Below, piece by piece: positions 7,027-14,982 of a DNA stretch of 20,276 bases. The translations under genes were made by a program, and so were the position numbers. The DNA lies in the UHGV virus genome UHGV-1757948; one strand, given 5' to 3'. Below the pieces are notes generated by a model, which saw only the letters and a list, made by a program, of their open reading frames with translations, did no database searches and was not told where the DNA came from. Origin of the DNA: a virus. Position 1 is the stretch's first letter. Each line of letters starts with the position of its first letter.

Positions 7027-7260
7027 ATGAACAAGATTATAATGTGGTTTAAGACAAGCAACCGATGGAAGCATCTGCTTGGCGGTCTGATTATCGGTAT
7101 GGGAGCGGATGATATATACTGTGCGGCATACGCAGGCATAGGCGTTGCGGCAGCCCTTGAACTGAAAGACAGGCAATGGGGCGGCAAATGGGACTGGACA
7201 GACTTCGGGCTGACAACAGCCGGAACAGTTGTGGGACAATGCATAAGGATGATGATATGA
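7027..7260 (+). CDS. Small membrane protein (77 aa from ATG 7027), holin/antiholin candidate
   Basis: ATG 7027 is preceded by caaGGGAGa. The hydrophobic segments are HLLGGLIIGMGADDIYCAAYAGIGVAAAL and FGLTTAGTVVGQCI. The track ORF start at 6934 overlaps the upstream gene and the hairpin, so the later start is preferred. Confidence 0.55.
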   Translation: MNKIIMWFKTSNRWKHLLGGLIIGMGADDIYCAAYAGIGVAAALELKDRQWGGKWDWTDFGLTTAGTVVGQCIRMMI

Positions 7261-7865
7261 ACGAGGTACAAAGCACATTGGAGGTCGCAAAAGGCATAAG
7301 CGACTATGGGATAATGATAGTCATCTGCGCGGTGTTCCTGCTGCTCGCCTCAGGTCTGATGATTGCGTGTTTCCGCTGGTTCAAATCAGCGATAAGCAAC
7401 ATAATATCCTACACTGACGAGCTGCGCGAGCTTAACGGAAAGCTGGAAAACAACAACCACGTCATGGTGACGATAGCGGAGGGACTGATGCCTGAGACAC
7501 AACTGCGGATAAAGAACATATCCGGAGCGTTCTTTGACCTTGCGGTGGAGAAAGTATGCAGACTCCTGAAGAAAATAAGGGAGGAGAACCATATAGCCGA
7601 CAAGGAAAGGACAAAGGCTAAGATACGCACCCTGCTGAGCAACATGTATGAGGACAGGAACAGCAAGTTCGACAATTTCCATTACCGTGGGAAAAAGCTC
7701 TCGGAGTACTGCAATCCGGAATGGACAGAATGGGTGGCGAAAGTAATAGAGGGAGAGCTGTACAATGAGAACGGTGCGAACAACGGAAGAGCCTACACCA
7801 ACGTCAGCGCAGTATATGACAATATAAAATTGGACTTTTATCACAGAATGACAGACCAGATATGA
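7257..7865 (+). CDS. N-terminally membrane-anchored protein with a helical ectodomain (202 aa from ATG 7257)
   Basis: It has an ATGA overlap with the stop at 7258-7260. A single TM (YGIMIVICAVFLLLASGLMIACFRWF) is followed by a charged helical region. It sits directly upstream of the endolysin. An i-spanin-like or lysis-regulator role is only a guess. Confidence 0.65.
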   Translation: MNEVQSTLEVAKGISDYGIMIVICAVFLLLASGLMIACFRWFKSAISNIISYTDELRELNGKLENNNHVMVTIAEGLMPETQLRIKNISGAFFDLAVEKVCRLLKKIREENHIADKERTKAKIRTLLSNMYEDRNSKFDNFHYRGKKLSEYCNPEWTEWVAKVIEGELYNENGANNGRAYTNVSAVYDNIKLDFYHRMTDQI

Positions 7866-7895: not shown

Positions 7896-8489
7896 ATGGA
7901 AAAGTTTAAAGTTATACTTGATGCGGGACACGGAAGGGACACCGCAGGGAAACGTTCGCCTGACGGACGCCTGCTCGAATACGCATACGCCCGTGAGATT
8001 GCAGTGCGTCTTGAAAGGGAACTCAAGGCACGTGGATATGACGCGCAGCGCATTGTGCCCGAGGAAAACGACATCTGCCTGAAAGAGCGGTGCGAAAGGG
8101 CAAACAGAATTTATGCCGCGACAGGAAAGAAAGCGATACTTGTCTCAATACACTGTAACGCGGCTGGTGCCGACGGCAAATGGCATGACGCCAGAGGATG
8201 GTCGGCTTATGTCTCGCGCAACGCTTCAAAGAAGAGCAAAGAGCTCGCCTGCCGTCTGATTGACGCGGCAGAGACACAAGGACTGAAAGTCCGAAGATAC
8301 TCACAGGATGAGCCATATTGGACACAGAATCTCGCAATATGCCGTGACACAAATTGTCCCGCAGTCCTGACTGAAAACCTTTTTCAGGACAACCGGGAGG
8401 ACGTGGACTATCTGCTGAGCGAGAAAGGCAAGCGAACCATTGTGGAGCTGCACGTGGAAGGCATCATGGCGTACTTGGGGAAAGTGTGA
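7896..8489 (+). CDS. N-acetylmuramoyl-L-alanine amidase (Amidase_3 type) endolysin
   Basis: KVILDAGHGRDTAGKRSPDG, EYAYAREIA, SIHCNAAG and TENLFQDN follow the classical Amidase_3 zinc-amidase motif order. The gene lies at the end of the late operon. Confidence 0.92.
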   Translation: MEKFKVILDAGHGRDTAGKRSPDGRLLEYAYAREIAVRLERELKARGYDAQRIVPEENDICLKERCERANRIYAATGKKAILVSIHCNAAGADGKWHDARGWSAYVSRNASKKSKELACRLIDAAETQGLKVRRYSQDEPYWTQNLAICRDTNCPAVLTENLFQDNREDVDYLLSEKGKRTIVELHVEGIMAYLGKV

Positions 8490-8515
8490 GCTCGTTTCCA
8501 AAATGGAAATAACTG

Positions 8516-8544
8516 ACGACAGTTGCAAATTCCGCAACCGTCGT
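8516..8544 (+). terminator. Possible terminator hairpin after the endolysin gene
   Basis: ACGACAGTTGC (8516-8526) pairs with GCAACCGTCGT (8534-8544) as an 11-bp stem with one mismatch and a 7-nt loop. There is no U-tract, so the call is weak. The 3' arm could alternatively pair with GGTTGC at 8567-8572. Confidence 0.3.
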
Positions 8545-8596
8545 AAAGGCGTTCTTTGACATTGTGGGTTGCCGTTAAAAATACAATATTTTCGAA

Positions 8597-8635
8597 AAAT
8601 TATATACAATTATTTTGGGAAATTATATATCTTTG
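8597..8635 (+). promoter_or_regulatory. Candidate Bacteroidetes-type promoter (-7 box TAnnTTTG) with a flanking direct repeat
   Basis: TATCTTTG at 8628-8635 matches the Bacteroides -7 consensus TAnnTTTG. A 10-nt direct repeat AAATTATATA occurs at 8597-8606 and 8620-8629 (23-bp period). TTTG at 8614-8617 lies closer than the canonical -33 spacing, so the call is tentative. Confidence 0.4.
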
Positions 8636-8647
8636 CACAATATAAGA

Positions 8648-8669
8648 AGCCCTTACGGCAATAAGGGCT
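8648..8669 (+). promoter_or_regulatory. Perfect 8-bp stem-loop in the predicted 5' leader of the accessory cassette
   Basis: AGCCCTTA (8648-8655), loop cggcaa, then TAAGGGCT (8662-8669). It lies immediately downstream of the promoter-like box and upstream of the candidate start codons at 8673 and 8709. Confidence 0.5.
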
Positions 8670-8675
8670 GAAATG

Positions 8676-8690
8676 ACAGACGGTGTGCCC
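8676..8690 (+). repeat. Left arm of a perfect 15-bp inverted repeat
   Basis: ACAGACGGTGTGCCC is the exact reverse complement of 9308-9322. It also takes part in a local hairpin, AGACGG (8678-8683) with CCGTCT (8689-8694). Confidence 0.85.
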
Positions 8691-8708
8691 GTCTTAAATT
8701 TAAATTAT

Positions 8709-9302
8709 ATGGCAAAGATAAATAATAATTTTGAGAAACGAAAACGCATCACGAAAAATGAAGCGTTGGAACTGCTAAAAGATTGTTATGAGGACATCTT
8801 CAAGGCGTATTACGCAGGTCTGGAAAATTACAATGAAGAAATAAATATGACCATACCTGAAGCAAGGACAAGGCTTGTAGGTCCTTTGCTTAACGCAAAA
8901 ATAACAGAGAGTTTCATTCTCACATTTCCCGAGAACTGGAACAAAGGCAAATACGGAAGGATAATATTCAGATGGAACGGTGTGCTCATGCTCATCAAGA
9001 AATTGAACAAGAATGACAAGCCGTCTTACATTCCGACAATACTTTCAGATTCGATTGTCAACCAATACCAATTACCGCTTTTCCAAGGCGATGAAGGCAA
9101 GGAAGAGCCGATATTGATTTTCGGATATACAAAGGACGGTTTCGGGCAGCTCGTAAACCCGAGAATTGTCTTGTATGACGATGGGGTTCAATGGACTGCC
9201 TATATGGAAGACGGTGTAAATATGCCGACTGCCAATACAGACACGCAGGAGATTATTGTCCGCCTGAAAAAGAAAGAGACAGGAGAAAAGAAGGCAGAAT
9301 AA
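8709..9302 (+). CDS. Hypothetical protein with no recognisable domain (197 aa from ATG 8709; the track starts at 8673)
   Basis: It is a long ORF in a low-GC block. ATG 8709 has an unstructured AT-rich upstream context (ttaaatttaaattat), whereas ATG 8673 is embedded between two hairpins. I recognise no motif in the product. Confidence 0.7.
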   Translation: MAKINNNFEKRKRITKNEALELLKDCYEDIFKAYYAGLENYNEEINMTIPEARTRLVGPLLNAKITESFILTFPENWNKGKYGRIIFRWNGVLMLIKKLNKNDKPSYIPTILSDSIVNQYQLPLFQGDEGKEEPILIFGYTKDGFGQLVNPRIVLYDDGVQWTAYMEDGVNMPTANTDTQEIIVRLKKKETGEKKAE

Positions 9303-9307
9303 CAGCA

Positions 9308-9322
9308 GGGCACACCGTCTGT
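9308..9322 (+). repeat. Right arm of the perfect 15-bp inverted repeat
   Basis: GGGCACACCGTCTGT begins 6 nt after the stop at 9300-9302 and is followed by TTTT. It is the reverse complement of 8676-8690. Confidence 0.85.
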
Positions 9323-9354
9323 TTTCAACAAACGACCTATAAAAGCAACGTCTT

Positions 9355-10410
9355 ATGAAATGTGAGCAGCTAACATTCGCAAGGGAATACAGGGGATTTA
9401 CGCAAACCGCACTCGCGGCAAAAGTCAAAGGGCTATCGCAATCCAACCTGTCAAAATATGAAAAGGGGTTTGGCGGGCTGTCAGACAACATGCTTAGTTT
9501 GATTATGTCCACGCTTGATTTTCCGATGAAATTCCTTGACATGAATATTGTGAACAAGGTTGACAGCAAGCATTACAGGAAAAAGGCAACCATAACCGTA
9601 AAGACACGCAACGAGATAGACAGGACAATATCCCTGATTGCGTATTGTTTTGATTGGCTTAGTGAATTTGTCGAGATACCTGACTATTCATTTGGATACT
9701 ACGACATGGACAACGGCATAAGCCCGGAGGAACTTGCCGGGCACATAAGGAACAAATACAGGCTCGGCATGTCGCCTATATCCGATATTTGCAATTTCCT
9801 TGAGCGCAATGGGGTATTCATTTACATGTGGGACAGTCCTAACGACGAGTTTGACGGGGTATCCCTGATAACTGACGCAGGCAATCATCTTATCATTGTG
9901 AACAGGAACAGAAGCAACGACAGGGTAAGGTTTACGCTTGCACATGAGCTGGGACACATACTGATGCACGAGTGCCCAAGTTTCCCGGTATTCAGCATTA
10001 GAGACAAGGAGAAAGAGGCGAACGCTTTTGCATCAGAGTTCCTTCTCCCCTCCCAGGCTGTCAGAAACGCCTTGCACAATGTCAGGCTCGGACAGTTCCC
10101 TGAGCTGAAACGGTATTGGCTTGTTTCCATGGCATCACTTTTGGAAAAGGCAAAAAACATAAACGCCATTGCAAGTGAGAAGTACAAGTCTATGAGAATG
10201 GAGTTCAGCAGACGCCATTGGAATAAGAAAGAACCTTACGAAGTGCCTATTGACAGCCCTACCGTCTTTGAGCAGGCATATAGGCTGGTATCGGACACAT
10301 TGGGGTATTCAATCAGCATGATTTCGGAAAGCACAGGCTTGCCCGAGGATGTCTTGATAAAGATATTCGGCAAATCTGCGAGGATAATATCATTAAAGCC
10401 ACTAATATAA
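9355..10410 (+). CDS. XRE-family HTH fused to an ImmA/IrrE (COG2856, M78-type) zinc metallopeptidase domain
   Basis: The N-terminus LTFAREYRGFTQTALAAKVKGLSQSNLSKYEKG is a typical XRE/HTH_3 domain. The central FTLAHELGHILMHE is a HEXXH zinc site (HELGH encoded at 9943-9957), followed by EKEANAFASEFLLP. This order is typical of ImmA/IrrE peptidases. Confidence 0.88.
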   Translation: MKCEQLTFAREYRGFTQTALAAKVKGLSQSNLSKYEKGFGGLSDNMLSLIMSTLDFPMKFLDMNIVNKVDSKHYRKKATITVKTRNEIDRTISLIAYCFDWLSEFVEIPDYSFGYYDMDNGISPEELAGHIRNKYRLGMSPISDICNFLERNGVFIYMWDSPNDEFDGVSLITDAGNHLIIVNRNRSNDRVRFTLAHELGHILMHECPSFPVFSIRDKEKEANAFASEFLLPSQAVRNALHNVRLGQFPELKRYWLVSMASLLEKAKNINAIASEKYKSMRMEFSRRHWNKKEPYEVPIDSPTVFEQAYRLVSDTLGYSISMISESTGLPEDVLIKIFGKSARIISLKPLI

Positions 10411-10436
10411 CAATTATCTATTTTGATACAACACAG

Positions 10437-10474
10437 GCGGTGACCCACATATCAAGGGTTGCCGCTTTTTGTTT
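10437..10474 (+). terminator. Rho-independent terminator closing the two-gene cassette
   Basis: GCGGTGACCC (10437-10446) pairs with GGGTTGCCGC (10456-10465) as a 10-bp stem that includes two G-U pairs, with a 9-nt loop. It is followed by TTTTTGTTT. Confidence 0.6.
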
Positions 10475-10492
10475 AATAAAAAATGAAAGAAC

Positions 10493-11002
10493 ATGGGAAG
10501 ATTTAAAGGATTGCTTGTGGTAGTATCGGTGTTGTTGACCGCATCATTATGCGTCAACATACTCCAGTGCAGTAATGCCGGAAAGAAAACAACGAATCAG
10601 GACACAGTACGGACTACATATATAGACACCATTCCGTTCTTGAATCCTGTACCCAAAGACAGTACGGTGATACGGTATGTTACGGAGACGTTGCCCGTGA
10701 CTTGCCGCAAAGACACGATATACGAAGAGAAGGGCGGGAATACAGGCGACAGCGTCAAGGTGACACTGCCTATAACTTCCAAAGTCTATAAGGACAGTAC
10801 CTATACCGCATACGTGAGCGGATTCCGCGCGAATCTTGACAGTATATTTGTATATCCGAGACACGAGACTGTAACTGTCACAAGGTACAAGGAAAGTCCG
10901 CGCCTTGGCGTCGGTATTGCCGCAGGTTACGGTATAGGGAAAGACATGAAACCGACACCTTTCATAGGAATATCCGTATATTATAGGCTTTGGCAGTGGT
11001 AG
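10493..11002 (+). CDS. Secreted or lipoprotein-like protein with a beta-rich C-terminus ending in aromatic residues
   Basis: The N-terminal signal is MGRFKGLLVVVSVLLTASLCVNILQCS, with Cys candidates for lipidation. The C-terminus is GVGIAAGYGIGKD...FIGISVYYRLWQW. A terminal aromatic residue is reminiscent of outer-membrane beta-signal sequences. Confidence 0.65.
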   Translation: MGRFKGLLVVVSVLLTASLCVNILQCSNAGKKTTNQDTVRTTYIDTIPFLNPVPKDSTVIRYVTETLPVTCRKDTIYEEKGGNTGDSVKVTLPITSKVYKDSTYTAYVSGFRANLDSIFVYPRHETVTVTRYKESPRLGVGIAAGYGIGKDMKPTPFIGISVYYRLWQW

Positions 11003-11579: not shown

Positions 11580-12134
11580 TTAATATTTCTTATTCCCATG
11601 CTTAAATGGGCGGAGTCTGTTATAGCGCATCTTCTGCTCGACGTAGAAGTCGATGTCGATATCGTTTTGGTGGCAGAATAAGATAATGAGGGCTACAGTG
11701 AGATTGATTTTTTCGCAAAGGGCTTCCTTATATAAACAAAGTCCCTCACAAAGATGGTACATGACGACGGGGAATGGCTCATTAATGAATTTTGCGTCTG
11801 AAGCAAGAAACTCGTCAACGTAATGCAGGGATATTCCGCGCAGTGCAGCCAAGTCCAAACAGCGTATGATGATGTCGCTAAGTTCATCCTCAACCGAGTT
11901 TTTGACGTGTGTCTCAAATTCATACTTAAATACAACGTCGTCATCGGCGTATGTTCCAAGTAATGCTTTGAAAAGGTCAATGTCCGTGTGCCTGTCCTTG
12001 CGGTCTGCCTGTACAGCTTCAGATATCTCAGTAATGATAAGCATCAAATAAGTTTCGTCAGGCAGTTCTTCATCGTGCCATCCGTGCGTCTTTGCGGTCT
12101 CAAAAACTGCTTTTGATAATTTAGTCAAATCCAT
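11580..12134 (-). CDS. MazG-like all-alpha nucleoside triphosphate pyrophosphohydrolase
   Basis: THGWHDE...LMLIITEISEAVQADRKD, EDELSDIIIRCLDLAALRGISL and a C-terminal EQKMRYNRLRPFKHGNKKY are present. These match the E-x-x-E / E-x-x-D helices and the KM.YN..R..KHGK tail of phage MazG-like proteins. Confidence 0.75.
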   Translation of the reverse strand: MDLTKLSKAVFETAKTHGWHDEELPDETYLMLIITEISEAVQADRKDRHTDIDLFKALLGTYADDDVVFKYEFETHVKNSVEDELSDIIIRCLDLAALRGISLHYVDEFLASDAKFINEPFPVVMYHLCEGLCLYKEALCEKINLTVALIILFCHQNDIDIDFYVEQKMRYNRLRPFKHGNKKY

Positions 12135-13903: not shown

Positions 13904-14068
13904 TTATCTTGTGATTTTAGAGGAAATTTTCCTTGTATTTCCTTTGTTTTCCTTTGCCAAACACTCATTGCCACATCTTCTGCCCACGTCGTACTTATCG
14001 CACCATCCGTCTCCGTAGAAGCCTTCGTTAATGAAGTGGATACATGAGCCGCAGTGTCTTGCTTTCAT
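13904..14068 (-). CDS. Small Cys-rich protein (54 aa), below the ORF-track cutoff
   Basis: Its ATG (14068-14066) overlaps the TGA of the PAPS-reductase-like gene (14067-14065). My translation is MKARHCGSCIHFINEGFYGDGWCDKYDVGRRCGNECLAKENKGNTRKISSKITR, which has 5 Cys including a CxxC. Confidence 0.55.
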   Translation of the reverse strand: MKARHCGSCIHFINEGFYGDGWCDKYDVGRRCGNECLAKENKGNTRKISSKITR

Positions 14069-14982
14069 TTTTCGTCGTCTTTAAATTCAAATTTCTGTTG
14101 CAGGAACTCGTCAGCGTAGAACTGCTTGTAGCTCTTGTCGCTTATCCACCACCTAAAGCCTGTTTCAGCGTCGTTGAAATTGTGGTCGATATATCCGTTG
14201 TCTATCAGCCATTGGATTGTCTTTATCCAATTGCGTTTGACGTGCGGCCAGCGTTTAGCATCTTCCTTCTTTATCCGTGCGTTCGACATAGGGCAACAGA
14301 TGCAGCCAATGCGTGTATAACCCTCGTCGTAGAGTTCGCAGTGTGGTATGCCGTTCATGTTAAGGAACTCCCACACGTCGCGCTCCGTCCAATAGATTAT
14401 GGGCGATACAAGGATTTTGTCCTTACCGCCGACACACGCAACCATGCTCTCCTCATGTTCGCTCCATTGGTCAAAGGTTTCCTCATTGCGCTTGCCCTTT
14501 ATCTCTGTGGATATTTCCTCACGTTTTGCACGCCGTGCGCTTTCTTCTTTTCTCACACCGATAAGTGTCACCTTGCCAACGCCTGACGTTTCCTTGAACT
14601 CGGCACAACACCAACGCAAAGTCCTTGTCGGCAAGATGTGCTTTTTCTTCGCCATTTCGTAAATGCTCATCCGTGGTTTGATTAGCTCCACATCGGGGTA
14701 TTGCGTCTTGACGAAGCGGATGACTTCGGGCGGGTCTATGCTCGTAAGGTTCATGTGAGCCTTGAAGCGGACACCGGCCAGCTTTGCGACATGGTAGAGG
14801 CATTGGCTGTCCTTGCCGCCACTGAACGCAAGGTAAAAGCCGTTTTCGGGGTCGAGGCGCAACGCCATTTTCTCCGACTTCCGCAAAAGTTCGACGGAGT
14901 GTTCCAGCTTCCTTGCAAGCGGACGGCTTACCTTTGACATTACGGTGTCGTGGTCAAGCAGTATTATTTCACACGCTTTCAT
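14065..14982 (-). CDS. Phosphoadenosine phosphosulfate (PAPS) reductase family PP-loop ATPase, phage IbrA/DndC-like clade
   Basis: The PP-loop is AFSGGKDSQ (residues 52-60). It also has RWCCAEFKE, LIGVRKEESARRAKRE and YTRIGCICCP, matching the motif order of PAPS-reductase-like proteins common in phages. Confidence 0.88.
   Translation of the reverse strand: MKACEIILLDHDTVMSKVSRPLARKLEHSVELLRKSEKMALRLDPENGFYLAFSGGKDSQCLYHVAKLAGVRFKAHMNLTSIDPPEVIRFVKTQYPDVELIKPRMSIYEMAKKKHILPTRTLRWCCAEFKETSGVGKVTLIGVRKEESARRAKREEISTEIKGKRNEETFDQWSEHEESMVACVGGKDKILVSPIIYWTERDVWEFLNMNGIPHCELYDEGYTRIGCICCPMSNARIKKEDAKRWPHVKRNWIKTIQWLIDNGYIDHNFNDAETGFRWWISDKSYKQFYADEFLQQKFEFKDDEK

What the first reader, a model, noticed from the sequence alone, without database searches (positions are those of the whole stretch)
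8597..10474. Self-contained low-GC two-gene cassette: unknown protein plus XRE-HTH::ImmA/IrrE metallopeptidase fusion
This block sits between the endolysin and the rest of the genome. It has its own promoter-like box (TATCTTTG at 8628-8635), a structured leader, two genes and a good terminator (10437-10474). Its composition is clearly more AT-rich than the flanking phage backbone, which is the classic look of a moron expressed from the prophage.

Gene 2 fuses an XRE DNA-binding domain to a HEXXH ImmA/IrrE (COG2856) protease. Gene 1 (about 198 aa) has no motif I can recognise.

Xre and COG2856 pairs or fusions have been predicted computationally as toxin-antitoxin-like or abortive-infection modules. 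ImmA and IrrE themselves are stress-activated proteases that cleave repressors. Two readings follow:
- A protease-gated defence or exclusion module in which gene 1 is the effector.
- An unconventional lysogeny switch, with repressor and anti-repressor protease in one polypeptide, placed at the late/early operon junction.
Basis: partly seen in the sequence, partly recalled or inferred. Interest (0 to 1): 0.66.

Follow-up and report, generated by a model that had tools for sequence, protein, structure and literature searches.

The report
Rosmer-type toxin–antitoxin cassette with RNA clamp
A gut-bacterial prophage carries a mobile two-gene module that looks like a known anti-phage toxin–antitoxin system (RosmerTA) but pairs the usual antitoxin with an undescribed partner protein, whose gene is bracketed by a conserved long-range RNA helix that probably controls how much of it is made.

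Summary
The cassette is real: it has a promoter box, a structured leader, two genes and a terminator. Only the "clearly low GC" claim is weak.

- **Gene 2** (9355-10410) is a full-length match to RmrA, the HTH plus M78 zinc-peptidase antitoxin of RosmerTA defence systems.
- **Gene 1** (8709-9302, 197 aa) belongs to a small family with no match in Pfam, PHROGs, NCBIfam, PADLOC or PDB.
- **Linkage.** Gene 1 was followed by gene 2 in 68 of 68 loci. Gene 2 relatives were preceded by gene 1 in 79 of 80 loci.
- **Mobility.** The pair occurs in several phage backbones and in non-phage chromosomal sites. One related phage has the site without the genes. This fits a mobile moron and argues against a lysogeny switch.
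- **New finding.** A 10-18 bp RNA helix joins the 5' leader to the spacer just after the gene 1 stop. It is kept in almost every lineage, in more than 20 different sequences, and its mismatches are G·U. It competes with a local leader hairpin.

I read the cassette as a RosmerTA variant with a new putative toxin and mRNA-level control of that cistron. Toxicity, defence and the helix's role are untested.

The parts
8553..8574 (+). Conserved upstream element TCTTTGACATTGTGGGTTGCCG. It lies outside the cassette's own transcript and is complementary to the 5' arm of the cassette terminator.
   Evidence: It recurs upstream of the cassette in many contexts. Complementarity to the terminator's 5' half has z = -3.6 to -7.1 in several phage lineages, with covarying sequences, but is absent from chromosomal copies.
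8581..8626 (+). Two 23-nt direct repeats, each starting with ATACAA (8581-8586 and 8604-8609). Probable operator for the gene 2 HTH (inferred).
   Evidence: Direct repeat family D2. ATACAA lies exactly 47 and 24 nt before the -7 box in 23 and 25 of 32 distinct upstream regions. The HTH recognition segment GLSQSNLS..E is invariant or nearly so across lineages.
8628..8635 (+). Bacteroidota-type -7 promoter box TATCTTTG (consensus TAnnTTTG).
   Evidence: A TAnnTTTG box is conserved 78-95 nt before the gene 1 ATG in 32 of 32 distinct regions.
8648..8669 (+). 5' leader hairpin P1 (AGCCCTTA / TAAGGGCT).
   Evidence: Fold. Predicted independently by RNAalifold, with changes on both sides at all 4 pairs tested. 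Present in all 14 leaders folded singly.
8676..8694 (+). Arm 1 of the long-range helix H (8676-8690, ACAGACGGTGTGCCC). It overlaps the local hairpin P2 (AGACGG 8678-8683 / CCGTCT 8689-8694), so H and P2 are alternative structures.
   Evidence: Perfect 15-nt inverted repeat I1. A local hairpin overlapping arm 1 forms in 13 of 14 lineages folded.
8709..9302 (+). Gene 1: 197-aa protein of an undescribed family and the putative toxin or effector. The fold is weakly PD-(D/E)XK-like but has no conserved acidic residues.
9308..9322 (+). Arm 2 of helix H (GGGCACACCGTCTGT). It lies 5 nt after the gene 1 stop and ends 32 nt before the gene 2 ATG.
9355..10410 (+). Gene 2: 351-aa RmrA-like protein with an XRE HTH, an M78/ImmA-IrrE zinc peptidase (HELGH) and a C-terminal helical region. 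Putative antitoxin and autorepressor.
   Evidence: Pfam. PADLOC RmrA, E = 5e-59 over the full length. phrog_2439, E = 5e-75. NCBIfam spr1629 family, E = 7.6e-32. PDB CapP 7t5t, E = 9e-8, for the peptidase domain.
10435..10474 (+). Intrinsic terminator of the cassette: a 12-bp stem, a 9-nt loop and a TTTTTGTTT tail.
   Evidence: Fold. Similar AGCGG...CCGCTTTT hairpins follow gene 2 in other lineages.

Best explanation
The block is an autonomous, horizontally mobile two-gene operon of the RosmerTA type. It is carried as a moron inside the lysis module of a temperate Prevotella/Segatella phage.

**Shown here**
- Gene 2 has the RmrA architecture: HTH plus M78 zinc peptidase.
- Gene 1 is an obligatorily linked upstream partner from an undescribed family.
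- The operon has its own conserved promoter, leader and terminator.
- A conserved RNA helix (H) pairs the leader with the spacer just after the gene 1 stop. It encloses the whole gene 1 cistron and competes with a local leader hairpin (P2).

**Inferred**
- Gene 1 is the toxin or effector, and gene 2 neutralises it.
- Gene 2 represses the operon through the two ATACAA repeats.
- A phage or stress cue acting through the peptidase domain releases or induces the toxin. This causes abortive infection or exclusion that benefits the lysogen. The analogies are ImmA, IrrE and CapP, the last being activated by single-stranded DNA.
- Helix H sets a low toxin-to-antitoxin output from a toxin-first operon that has no recognisable internal promoter. 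It could do so by creating a double-strand processing site that separates the two cistrons. Alternatively it could lock the toxin's translation start region in a closed conformation, much like fold-back inhibition of hok mRNA.
For: **Gene 2 identity.**

**Linkage and decay pattern**
- Gene 2 lies 46-184 nt downstream of gene 1, on the same strand, in 68 of 68 loci found through gene 1.
- Gene 1 lies upstream in 79 of 80 loci found through gene 2.
- The single exception, L158, has the promoter joined directly to gene 2. An antitoxin-only remnant is the usual decay pattern of a toxin-antitoxin pair. Gene 1 was never found alone.

**Mobility**
- Chromosomal S. copri sites and other phages, in one case beside an Mrr-like gene.
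- Flavobacteriia chromosomes.
- Cassettes with 88-97% identical gene 1 in different backbones.
- A site lacking both genes in phage L072.

**Helix H**
- Present in 33 of 33 distinct leader/spacer combinations in the first set (z = -3.5 to -7.2).
- Present in about 39 of 46 combinations in the second set.
- Cognate arm pairs average -30.6 kcal/mol against -18.3 for non-cognate pairs.
- RNAalifold predicts it without guidance.
- 88% of cells are paired against 34-47% when partners are slid; 11 of 12 pairs change on both sides; 0 of 500 shuffles reach the observed score.
- Mean pair probability is 0.90-0.99 in full 707-769 nt transcripts of 11 of 11 lineages, and the helix is in the window's minimum-energy fold.
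- No TAnnTTTG box lies on the + strand between 8727 and 10842, so no consensus internal promoter for gene 2 is visible.

**Literature**
- RosmerTA defends against phage, and its antitoxin could not be deleted (10.1101/2022.05.11.491447).
- A phage-borne RmrTA with a family-less toxin exists; toxin-first order occurs in 58% of ImmA-node pairs (PMC10440598).
- The pneumococcal Rosmer pair RipAB has been characterised (10.1101/2025.09.02.673660).
Against: - No experiment bears on toxicity, neutralisation or defence for this family.
- Within this RmrA clade the partner is fixed rather than swapped. This differs from the partner promiscuity described for Rosmer/ImmA hubs.
- Earlier tests of predicted COG2856 "toxins" in S. 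pneumoniae found no toxicity (PMC4257102), so predictions for this domain class have failed before.
- The role of helix H is inferred only from its geometry. It directly covers neither start codon: arm 1 ends about 18 nt before ATG 1 and arm 2 ends about 32 nt before ATG 2. At 10-18 bp it is short for a classical RNase III site.
- About 7 of 46 combinations in the second set, those with short spacers, showed no clear helix with my procedure.
Confidence: 0.62

Rival explanations
1. Gene 2 is a fused CapH/CapP- or ImmR/ImmA-style stress switch, not an antitoxin. It represses the cassette promoter. After DNA damage or infection it cleaves itself or is inactivated, which induces gene 1. Gene 1 would then be an inducible effector or accessory protein that is not toxic at basal level.
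For: The peptidase domain's only solved relative by sequence is CapP (7t5t, E = 9e-8), and PADLOC capP matches at 5.6e-20. CapP is a peptidase activated by single-stranded DNA that cleaves an HTH repressor (PMC13228613). Conserved ATACAA repeats at the promoter, together with a conserved HTH recognition segment, fit autorepression.
Against: The full-length best matches are RmrA and spr1629 antitoxin profiles, not CapP. The single natural gene 1 loss alongside zero gene 2 losses fits addiction logic better. The two models are not mutually exclusive.
Confidence: 0.2
2. The pair is a pure addiction or stabilisation module. It keeps the prophage or genomic island in the host and has no anti-phage role.
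For: It has toxin-antitoxin-like architecture and strict linkage. It is present on mobile elements and in variable chromosomal regions.
Against: Characterised RmrA-containing systems give phage defence (10.1101/2022.05.11.491447; PMC10440598). The placement in phage accessory-gene sites beside lysis genes, in one backbone near an Mrr-like nuclease gene, is typical of defence morons. Nothing here excludes stabilisation as an additional effect.
Confidence: 0.12
3. It is an unconventional lysogeny switch, with repressor and anti-repressor protease in one polypeptide controlling the prophage.
For: It has the domain content of an ImmR+ImmA fusion. It sits where the rightward late genes meet the leftward genes.
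Against: The same cassette occurs in non-prophage chromosomal sites and in Flavobacteriia. It is found in several unrelated phage backbones. It is missing from a sister phage with an otherwise collinear lysis region. It is insulated by its own terminator. Its only conserved neighbour is gene 1.
Confidence: 0.04
4. The inverted repeat around gene 1 acts in DNA rather than RNA. It would be either an invertible switch (inverton) that flips gene 1, or a pair of operators for the HTH.
For: The repeat is a perfect 15-nt inverted repeat bracketing a 617-bp segment. Bacteroidales are rich in invertons (my own knowledge).
Against: Gene 1 is never inverted relative to gene 2 in 148 loci. No recombinase is a conserved neighbour. 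The repeat sequence differs completely between lineages while the HTH recognition segment stays nearly invariant. Internal mismatches are 7 G·U and 0 A·C, with one further A·C at a helix end. Selection on DNA would not produce that strand asymmetry.
Confidence: 0.03

Closest known systems
RosmerTA (RmrT/RmrA) anti-phage toxin-antitoxin systems, including phage Kita RmrTA and pneumococcal RipAB (Spr1630/Spr1629)
   Same: It is a two-gene operon. The antitoxin has an N-terminal XRE HTH and an M78/ImmA-IrrE zinc peptidase and gives full-length RmrA profile matches. The toxin is a small protein of no known family encoded upstream. It is carried by a phage, as the Kita system is (PMC10440598).
   Different: Gene 1 matches no RmrT profile, so PADLOC's protein models identify only the RmrA half of the pair. 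The partner is fixed across the whole clade rather than swapped. The hosts are Bacteroidota. A conserved long-range RNA helix brackets the toxin cistron; I found no report of this for Rosmer systems in the papers I read.
CapH/CapP, ImmR/ImmA and DdrO/IrrE repressor-protease pairs
   Same: The peptidase domain is M78/COG2856 with HEXXH and is homologous to CapP. It is combined with an XRE HTH DNA-binding function. These pairs are activated by stress or DNA damage.
   Different: Here the HTH and peptidase are one polypeptide. The module does not sit next to an integrase, an ICE or a CBASS operon. No Cys is invariant across the clade, so a CapP-like cysteine-switch loop cannot be assumed.
hok/sok-type (type I) toxin mRNAs with fold-back inhibition
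   Same: A long-range 5'-3' helix encloses the toxin reading frame and competes with a local 5' hairpin. The toxin mRNA can therefore exist in alternative conformations. The comparison itself rests on my own knowledge of hok mRNA.
   Different: The toxin is a 197-aa soluble protein, not a small membrane peptide. The antitoxin is a protein encoded on the same mRNA. No antisense RNA was looked for or seen. The 3' arm lies between two cistrons rather than at the mRNA 3' end.
PD-(D/E)XK restriction-endonuclease-like fold (for gene 1)

Membership tests
RosmerTA | The antitoxin combines an XRE-type HTH with an M78/ImmA-IrrE zinc peptidase (HEXXH). | tested here: met
   HTH_3 covers residues 10-59 and Peptidase_M78 covers 169-265, with HELGH.
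RosmerTA | The antitoxin matches RmrA profiles over its full length. | tested here: met
   14 PADLOC RmrA models match at E = 2e-31 to 5e-59, covering about residues 3-343. NCBIfam spr1629 repressor/antitoxin matches at E = 7.6e-32 but scores 110.8 bits against a 335-bit cut-off, so it is a related protein and not an equivalog.
RosmerTA | An adjacent co-directional partner gene forms a two-gene operon with the antitoxin. | tested here: met
   68 of 68 and 79 of 80 loci. The promoter and terminator are shared.
RosmerTA | The partner belongs to a described RmrT toxin family. | tested here: not met
   Gene 1 has no PADLOC hit even at E = 10. None of 69 diverse family members hits an RmrT model. 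Described RmrT toxins are heterogeneous, so this argues for a new toxin family rather than exclusion from RosmerTA.
RosmerTA | The partner is toxic and RmrA neutralises it. | not testable with these tools
   The only indirect hint is one natural orphan gene 2 (L158) and no orphan gene 1.
RosmerTA | The system confers anti-phage defence. | not testable with these tools
   Needs plaque assays.
CapH/CapP or ImmR/ImmA regulatory pair | A separate HTH repressor is cleaved by a separate M78 peptidase that regulates a neighbouring operon or element. | tested here: not met
   HTH and peptidase are fused in one 351-aa protein. There is no conserved neighbour other than gene 1.
Phage lysogeny switch (CI/Cro-like) | It is an integral, position-conserved part of the phage's immunity region. 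| tested here: not met
   The cassette lies between the endolysin and the DUF6808 gene. It is absent from sister phage L072. It is present in non-phage chromosomal sites.
PD-(D/E)XK nuclease superfamily (gene 1) | The core fold is present. | tested here: inconclusive
PD-(D/E)XK nuclease superfamily (gene 1) | Conserved acidic catalytic residues, D...(D/E)XK. | tested here: not met
   In 69 diverse members no acidic column is conserved. Only K97 is invariant, and R84, K98, P105, T110, Q119, G139 and Y140 are at least 90% conserved.
Inverton (invertible DNA switch) | Both orientations of the segment between the inverted repeats occur in natural populations. | tested here: not met
   0 of 148 loci have gene 1 inverted relative to gene 2.
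hok-like fold-back-inhibited toxin mRNA | A long-range helix encloses the toxin ORF and is mutually exclusive with a local 5' hairpin. | tested here: met
hok-like fold-back-inhibited toxin mRNA | An antisense RNA antitoxin and a small membrane-peptide toxin. | tested here: not met
   The toxin candidate is a 197-aa protein predicted as a globular alpha/beta fold, and the antitoxin candidate is a protein. Rfam finds nothing in 8450-10550. Antisense transcription was not examined.

The most novel reading that the evidence does not exclude
The toxin cistron of this protein-protein (Rosmer-type) toxin-antitoxin operon is governed by a conserved mRNA conformational switch. The local leader hairpin P2 competes with the 600-nt-range helix H that closes the mRNA around gene 1. 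The switch would set toxin output or trigger processing that uncouples toxin and antitoxin. This would carry the hok-style fold-back principle into a type II-like defence module. It would do so in Bacteroidota, where translation starts without Shine-Dalgarno pairing and depends strongly on mRNA structure.
Probability: 0.35. Interest if true: 0.7.

Novelty: new variant of a known kind. Interest (0 to 1): 0.5.

Why it matters
- **Detection gap.** If gene 1 is a toxin, it adds an undescribed effector family to RosmerTA. PADLOC's protein models recognise only the antitoxin half, so the pair would probably not be called as a complete system. The hosts, Prevotella/Segatella and Bacteroides, dominate the human gut and have poorly charted phage defence.
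- **Clean test case.** The strict one-to-one pairing and the small family size (118 clusters at 50% identity among 1.84 billion proteins) make it a good system for asking how an HTH-M78 antitoxin recognises its toxin.
- **Directly testable RNA feature.** The RNA helix is supported by heavy covariation. Arm and compensatory mutants, RNA probing and an RNase III mutant would test it. It would show how a toxin-first operon without a recognisable internal antitoxin promoter keeps toxin output low.

Tried and rejected
- **Near-identical DNA in INPHARED phages.** None found.
- **Family searches for gene 1.** Pfam, PHROGs, PADLOC and NCBIfam with the single protein, Pfam and PADLOC with 69 members, and a PDB profile search all found nothing.
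- **Rfam on the cassette.** No match.
- **DNA inversion reading of the inverted repeat.** Rejected: no inverted copies, variable arm sequences and a G·U bias.
- **The two arms as HTH operators.** Rejected: the arms vary while the recognition segment does not.
- **Helix H plus the following T-run as a long-range terminator.** Rejected as a general feature, because several lineages have no T-run after arm 2.
- **Outer pairing of the transcript's 5' end with the gene 2 start codon,** seen in the window's minimum-energy fold. Not consistent across lineages, and in L049 the partner is the promoter box itself.
- **A third copy of AGACGGTGT inside gene 1 (9209-9217)** as an alternative partner of arm 2. 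It is not conserved in other lineages.
- **A hairpin spanning the gene 1 stop codon (P3).** It is strong in some lineages (14 bp in S. copri copies), but RNAalifold finds no consensus across 22 sequences.
- **Low GC as evidence of foreign origin.** Not distinctive.
Full report
**1. What is in the sequence**

The region holds two co-directional ORFs, 8673/8709-9302 and 9355-10410. An Amidase_3 endolysin (7896-8489) lies upstream and a DUF6808 gene (10493-11002) downstream.

Homologues of gene 1 are 195-199 aa and align from the ATG at 8709, so the protein is 197 aa. Gene 2 (351 aa) carries HTH_3 at residues 10-59 and Peptidase_M78 at 169-265, with HELGH.

The stated promoter box TATCTTTG is at 8628-8635. 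The leader forms two hairpins. The terminator at 10435-10474 is a 12-bp hairpin with a T-tail (-22.5 kcal/mol, z = -4.8).

The composition claim is weak. The cassette is 42.9% GC against 47.2% for the window, and 14% of equal-sized windows are as low or lower.

**2. Identity of the proteins**

Gene 2 matches 14 PADLOC RmrA models over its full length (best E = 5e-59) and capP at 5.6e-20. It also matches:
- phrog_2439 at 5e-75;
- NCBIfam "spr1629 family repressor/antitoxin" at 7.6e-32, below the equivalog cut-off;
- in the PDB, only CapP 7t5t, through the peptidase domain.

RmrA is the antitoxin of RosmerTA. [quoted passage not shown] A phage-borne RmrTA with a family-less toxin defends E. coli (PMC10440598). 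The pneumococcal Spr1630/Spr1629 pair (RipAB) is a characterised Rosmer system (10.1101/2025.09.02.673660).

Gene 1 has no match in Pfam, PHROGs, PADLOC or NCBIfam when searched alone, nor in Pfam, PADLOC or a PDB profile search with 69 diverse members. The family is small: 118 representatives at 50% clustering among 1.84 billion proteins, all single-domain proteins of about 200 aa.

Across 69 members only K97 is invariant. R84, K98, P105, T110, Q119, G139 and Y140 are nearly so, and no acidic residue is conserved. A canonical metal-dependent nuclease site is therefore absent. A basic, possibly nucleic-acid-binding surface is a guess only.

**3. Linkage, distribution and mobility**

- In 68 loci retrieved through gene 1, a gene 2 homologue (43-100% identity) follows 46-184 nt downstream on the same strand in all 68.
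- In 80 viral loci retrieved through gene 2 (down to 42% identity), 79 have a gene 1 family ORF immediately upstream.
- The exception, L158, has the cassette promoter joined directly to gene 2.
- Gene 1 never occurs alone.

Contexts include:
- S. copri chromosomal regions among glycosyltransferase and sulfatase genes;
- other phages after their lysis genes, one with an Mrr-like gene nearby;
- Flavobacteriia chromosomes;
- contigs of 120-565 kb that carry the cassette, one of them (276 kb) in the window's own phage backbone, so this phage is a prophage.

Cassettes with 88-97% identical gene 1 sit in backbones that lack the window's endolysin and DUF6808 genes.

Phage L072, with 94% endolysin identity, has the endolysin followed directly by DUF6808. 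It retains the cassette's upstream repeats and terminator but neither gene. The cassette is thus a mobile moron in the lysis module, not part of the phage's immunity region.

**4. Regulatory anatomy conserved across lineages**

- A TAnnTTTG box lies 78-95 nt before the gene 1 ATG in 32 of 32 distinct upstream regions.
- ATACAA boxes lie exactly 47 and 24 nt upstream of it in 23 and 25 of the 32 regions. In the window these are the 23-nt direct repeats at 8581-8626.
- Eight residues of the HTH recognition segment GLSQSNLSKYE are invariant, and one more is conserved in at least 90% of sequences, in all 16 lineages aligned. These constant boxes are therefore the likely operator (inferred).
- Hairpin P1 follows the predicted transcription start and covaries.
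- A GC-rich terminator of similar form follows gene 2 in many lineages.

**5. The long-range helix**

A perfect 15-nt inverted repeat brackets gene 1. Arm 1 is 8676-8690 in the leader and arm 2 is 9308-9322, 5 nt after the stop.

The same arrangement holds in other loci with entirely different sequences. Arm 1 ends 14-30 nt before the ATG, and arm 2 starts within about 11 nt after the stop.
- It occurs in 33 of 33 distinct leader/spacer combinations of the first set (z = -3.5 to -7.2 against shuffles), giving 17 distinct arm cores.
- It occurs in about 39 of 46 combinations of the second set, adding at least six more sequence types.
- Cognate arm pairs are far more stable than non-cognate ones, -30.6 against -18.3 kcal/mol on average.
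- RNAalifold on a MAFFT alignment predicts P1 and a 12-bp long-range helix without guidance.
- On that structure 88% of cells are paired, against 34-47% when partners are slid by 1-3 columns. Eleven of the 12 long-range pairs change on both sides, and no shuffle of 500 reaches the observed covariation.
- In partition-function folds of the whole 707-769 nt transcript, the helix has mean pair probability 0.90-0.99 in 11 of 11 lineages. It is also in the window's minimum-energy and centroid folds.
- Arm 1 also forms a local hairpin (P2) with the bases just downstream, in 13 of 14 leaders folded. P2 and H are therefore alternatives.

**6. RNA or DNA?**

Three DNA-level readings were considered.
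- *Inversion switch.* In 148 loci gene 1 is never inverted relative to gene 2. No recombinase is a conserved neighbour, and the arms differ between lineages.
- *Operator pair.* The arms vary while the HTH recognition segment does not.
- *Mismatch types.* Seven internal mismatches are G·U and none is A·C; one further A·C lies at a helix end. One series runs C-G, then U-G, then U-A. This asymmetry is expected for pairing in the sense transcript and not for selection on DNA.

**7. Most likely mechanism**

Shown here:
- an RmrA-type protein;
- an obligate upstream partner;
- an autonomous operon;
- mobility between hosts and backbones;
- helix H competing with P2.

Inferred:
- gene 1 is the toxin or effector and gene 2 neutralises it;
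- gene 2 autorepresses through the ATACAA boxes;
- a phage or stress cue acting through the M78 domain (compare ImmA, IrrE, and CapP activated by single-stranded DNA; PMC13228613) frees or induces the toxin and aborts infection;
- helix H keeps toxin output low relative to antitoxin. The operon is toxin-first and has no TAnnTTTG box on the + strand between 8727 and 10842. H could do this by double-strand processing that removes the protective 5' hairpin from the toxin cistron, or by holding the toxin's initiation region in a closed state.

The helix covers neither start codon, so its exact role is open.

**8. Comparison and novelty**

The cassette works like RosmerTA and meets that family's architectural criteria, except that its toxin belongs to none of the described toxin families. 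Toxicity and defence are untested.

It differs from CapH/CapP and ImmR/ImmA in that the HTH and peptidase are fused and no regulated neighbour is conserved. It resembles hok mRNA only in the fold-back geometry.

I rate it a new variant of a known kind. The protein pair alone would be a modest addition. The strongly covarying RNA bracket is the unexpected part and is directly testable.

**9. Caveats**

- Everything functional is inference.
- Earlier predictions for COG2856 proteins failed a toxicity test in pneumococcus (PMC4257102).
- The fold assignment for gene 1 is weak.
- Some lineages with short spacers showed no clear helix with my automated procedure.
- Many loci are closely related, so counts of loci overstate the number of independent events. 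The counts of distinct arm sequences are the safer measure.

Noticed in passing
window 8553-8574 and 10436-10455; also L045, L057, L048, L013, L012: A conserved element just upstream of the cassette promoter (TCTTTGACATTGTGGGTTGCCG) is complementary to the 5' arm of the cassette's terminator, about 1.9 kb away. The sequences covary between phage lineages (z = -3.6 to -7.1), but chromosomal copies lack the feature. Only read-through transcripts from the late genes would contain the upstream element. It could therefore act as a distant anti-terminator that lets late transcription pass the moron's terminator and reach the DUF6808 gene.
   Followed up: partly
L072:4684-5010, compared with window 8440-8720 and 10380-10502: A sister phage has the endolysin followed directly by DUF6808. 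It keeps the ATACAA repeats and the terminator but has neither cassette gene, and its -7 box is disrupted (TATATATGCT). This is either a deletion scar or an empty landing site. AATATAA occurs at both cassette edges in the window (8638-8644 and 10406-10412).
   Followed up: partly
L158:2880-3010: This is the only orphan gene 2 among 148 loci. The ATACAA/TATATTTG promoter is joined to gene 2 by a short leader with no gene 1, no P1 or P2 hairpin and no helix arms.
   Followed up: partly
window 9291-9326; L055:3568-3630: A local hairpin can span the gene 1 stop codon. Its 5' strand is the conserved last codons (K-K-A-E-stop) and its 3' strand overlaps the end of arm 2. It is 14 bp in S. copri copies and 9 bp in the window. 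It would compete with helix H and would be opened by a terminating ribosome. RNAalifold found no consensus across all 22 lineages.
   Followed up: partly
window 8673-8708: An in-frame ATG at 8673 extends the gene 1 ORF by 12 codons and lies just before arm 1 and P2. Homologues do not support it as the start, although a few database proteins are called from it (for example P0001, at 205 aa).
   Followed up: partly
window 10493-11002 (DUF6808) and 7176-7865 (phrog_19698): The DUF6808 protein has a lipoprotein-like N-terminus (…LLTASLC…) and sits next to the endolysin in six other phages (L073-L078). The 229-aa protein before the endolysin has a hydrophobic stretch. They may be the spanin-like and holin-like parts of the lysis module that the cassette interrupts.
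   Followed up: no
L007-L011, about 3 kb downstream of the cassette: In another phage backbone the cassette is followed by three further accessory genes, including an Mrr_cat restriction-endonuclease-like gene. This suggests a defence-gene hotspot after the lysis genes.
   Followed up: no
window 11580-12134 (-) and 14065-14982 (-): The leftward gene block includes a MazG-like pyrophosphatase (phrog_9236) and a PAPS-reductase-like protein (phrog_424).
   Followed up: no
L014 (contig binned as [Ruminococcus] lactaris): A cassette copy with a typical Bacteroidota promoter box sits on a 3.7-kb contig assigned to a Firmicutes bin. This is probably a binning error rather than cross-phylum transfer.
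   Followed up: no
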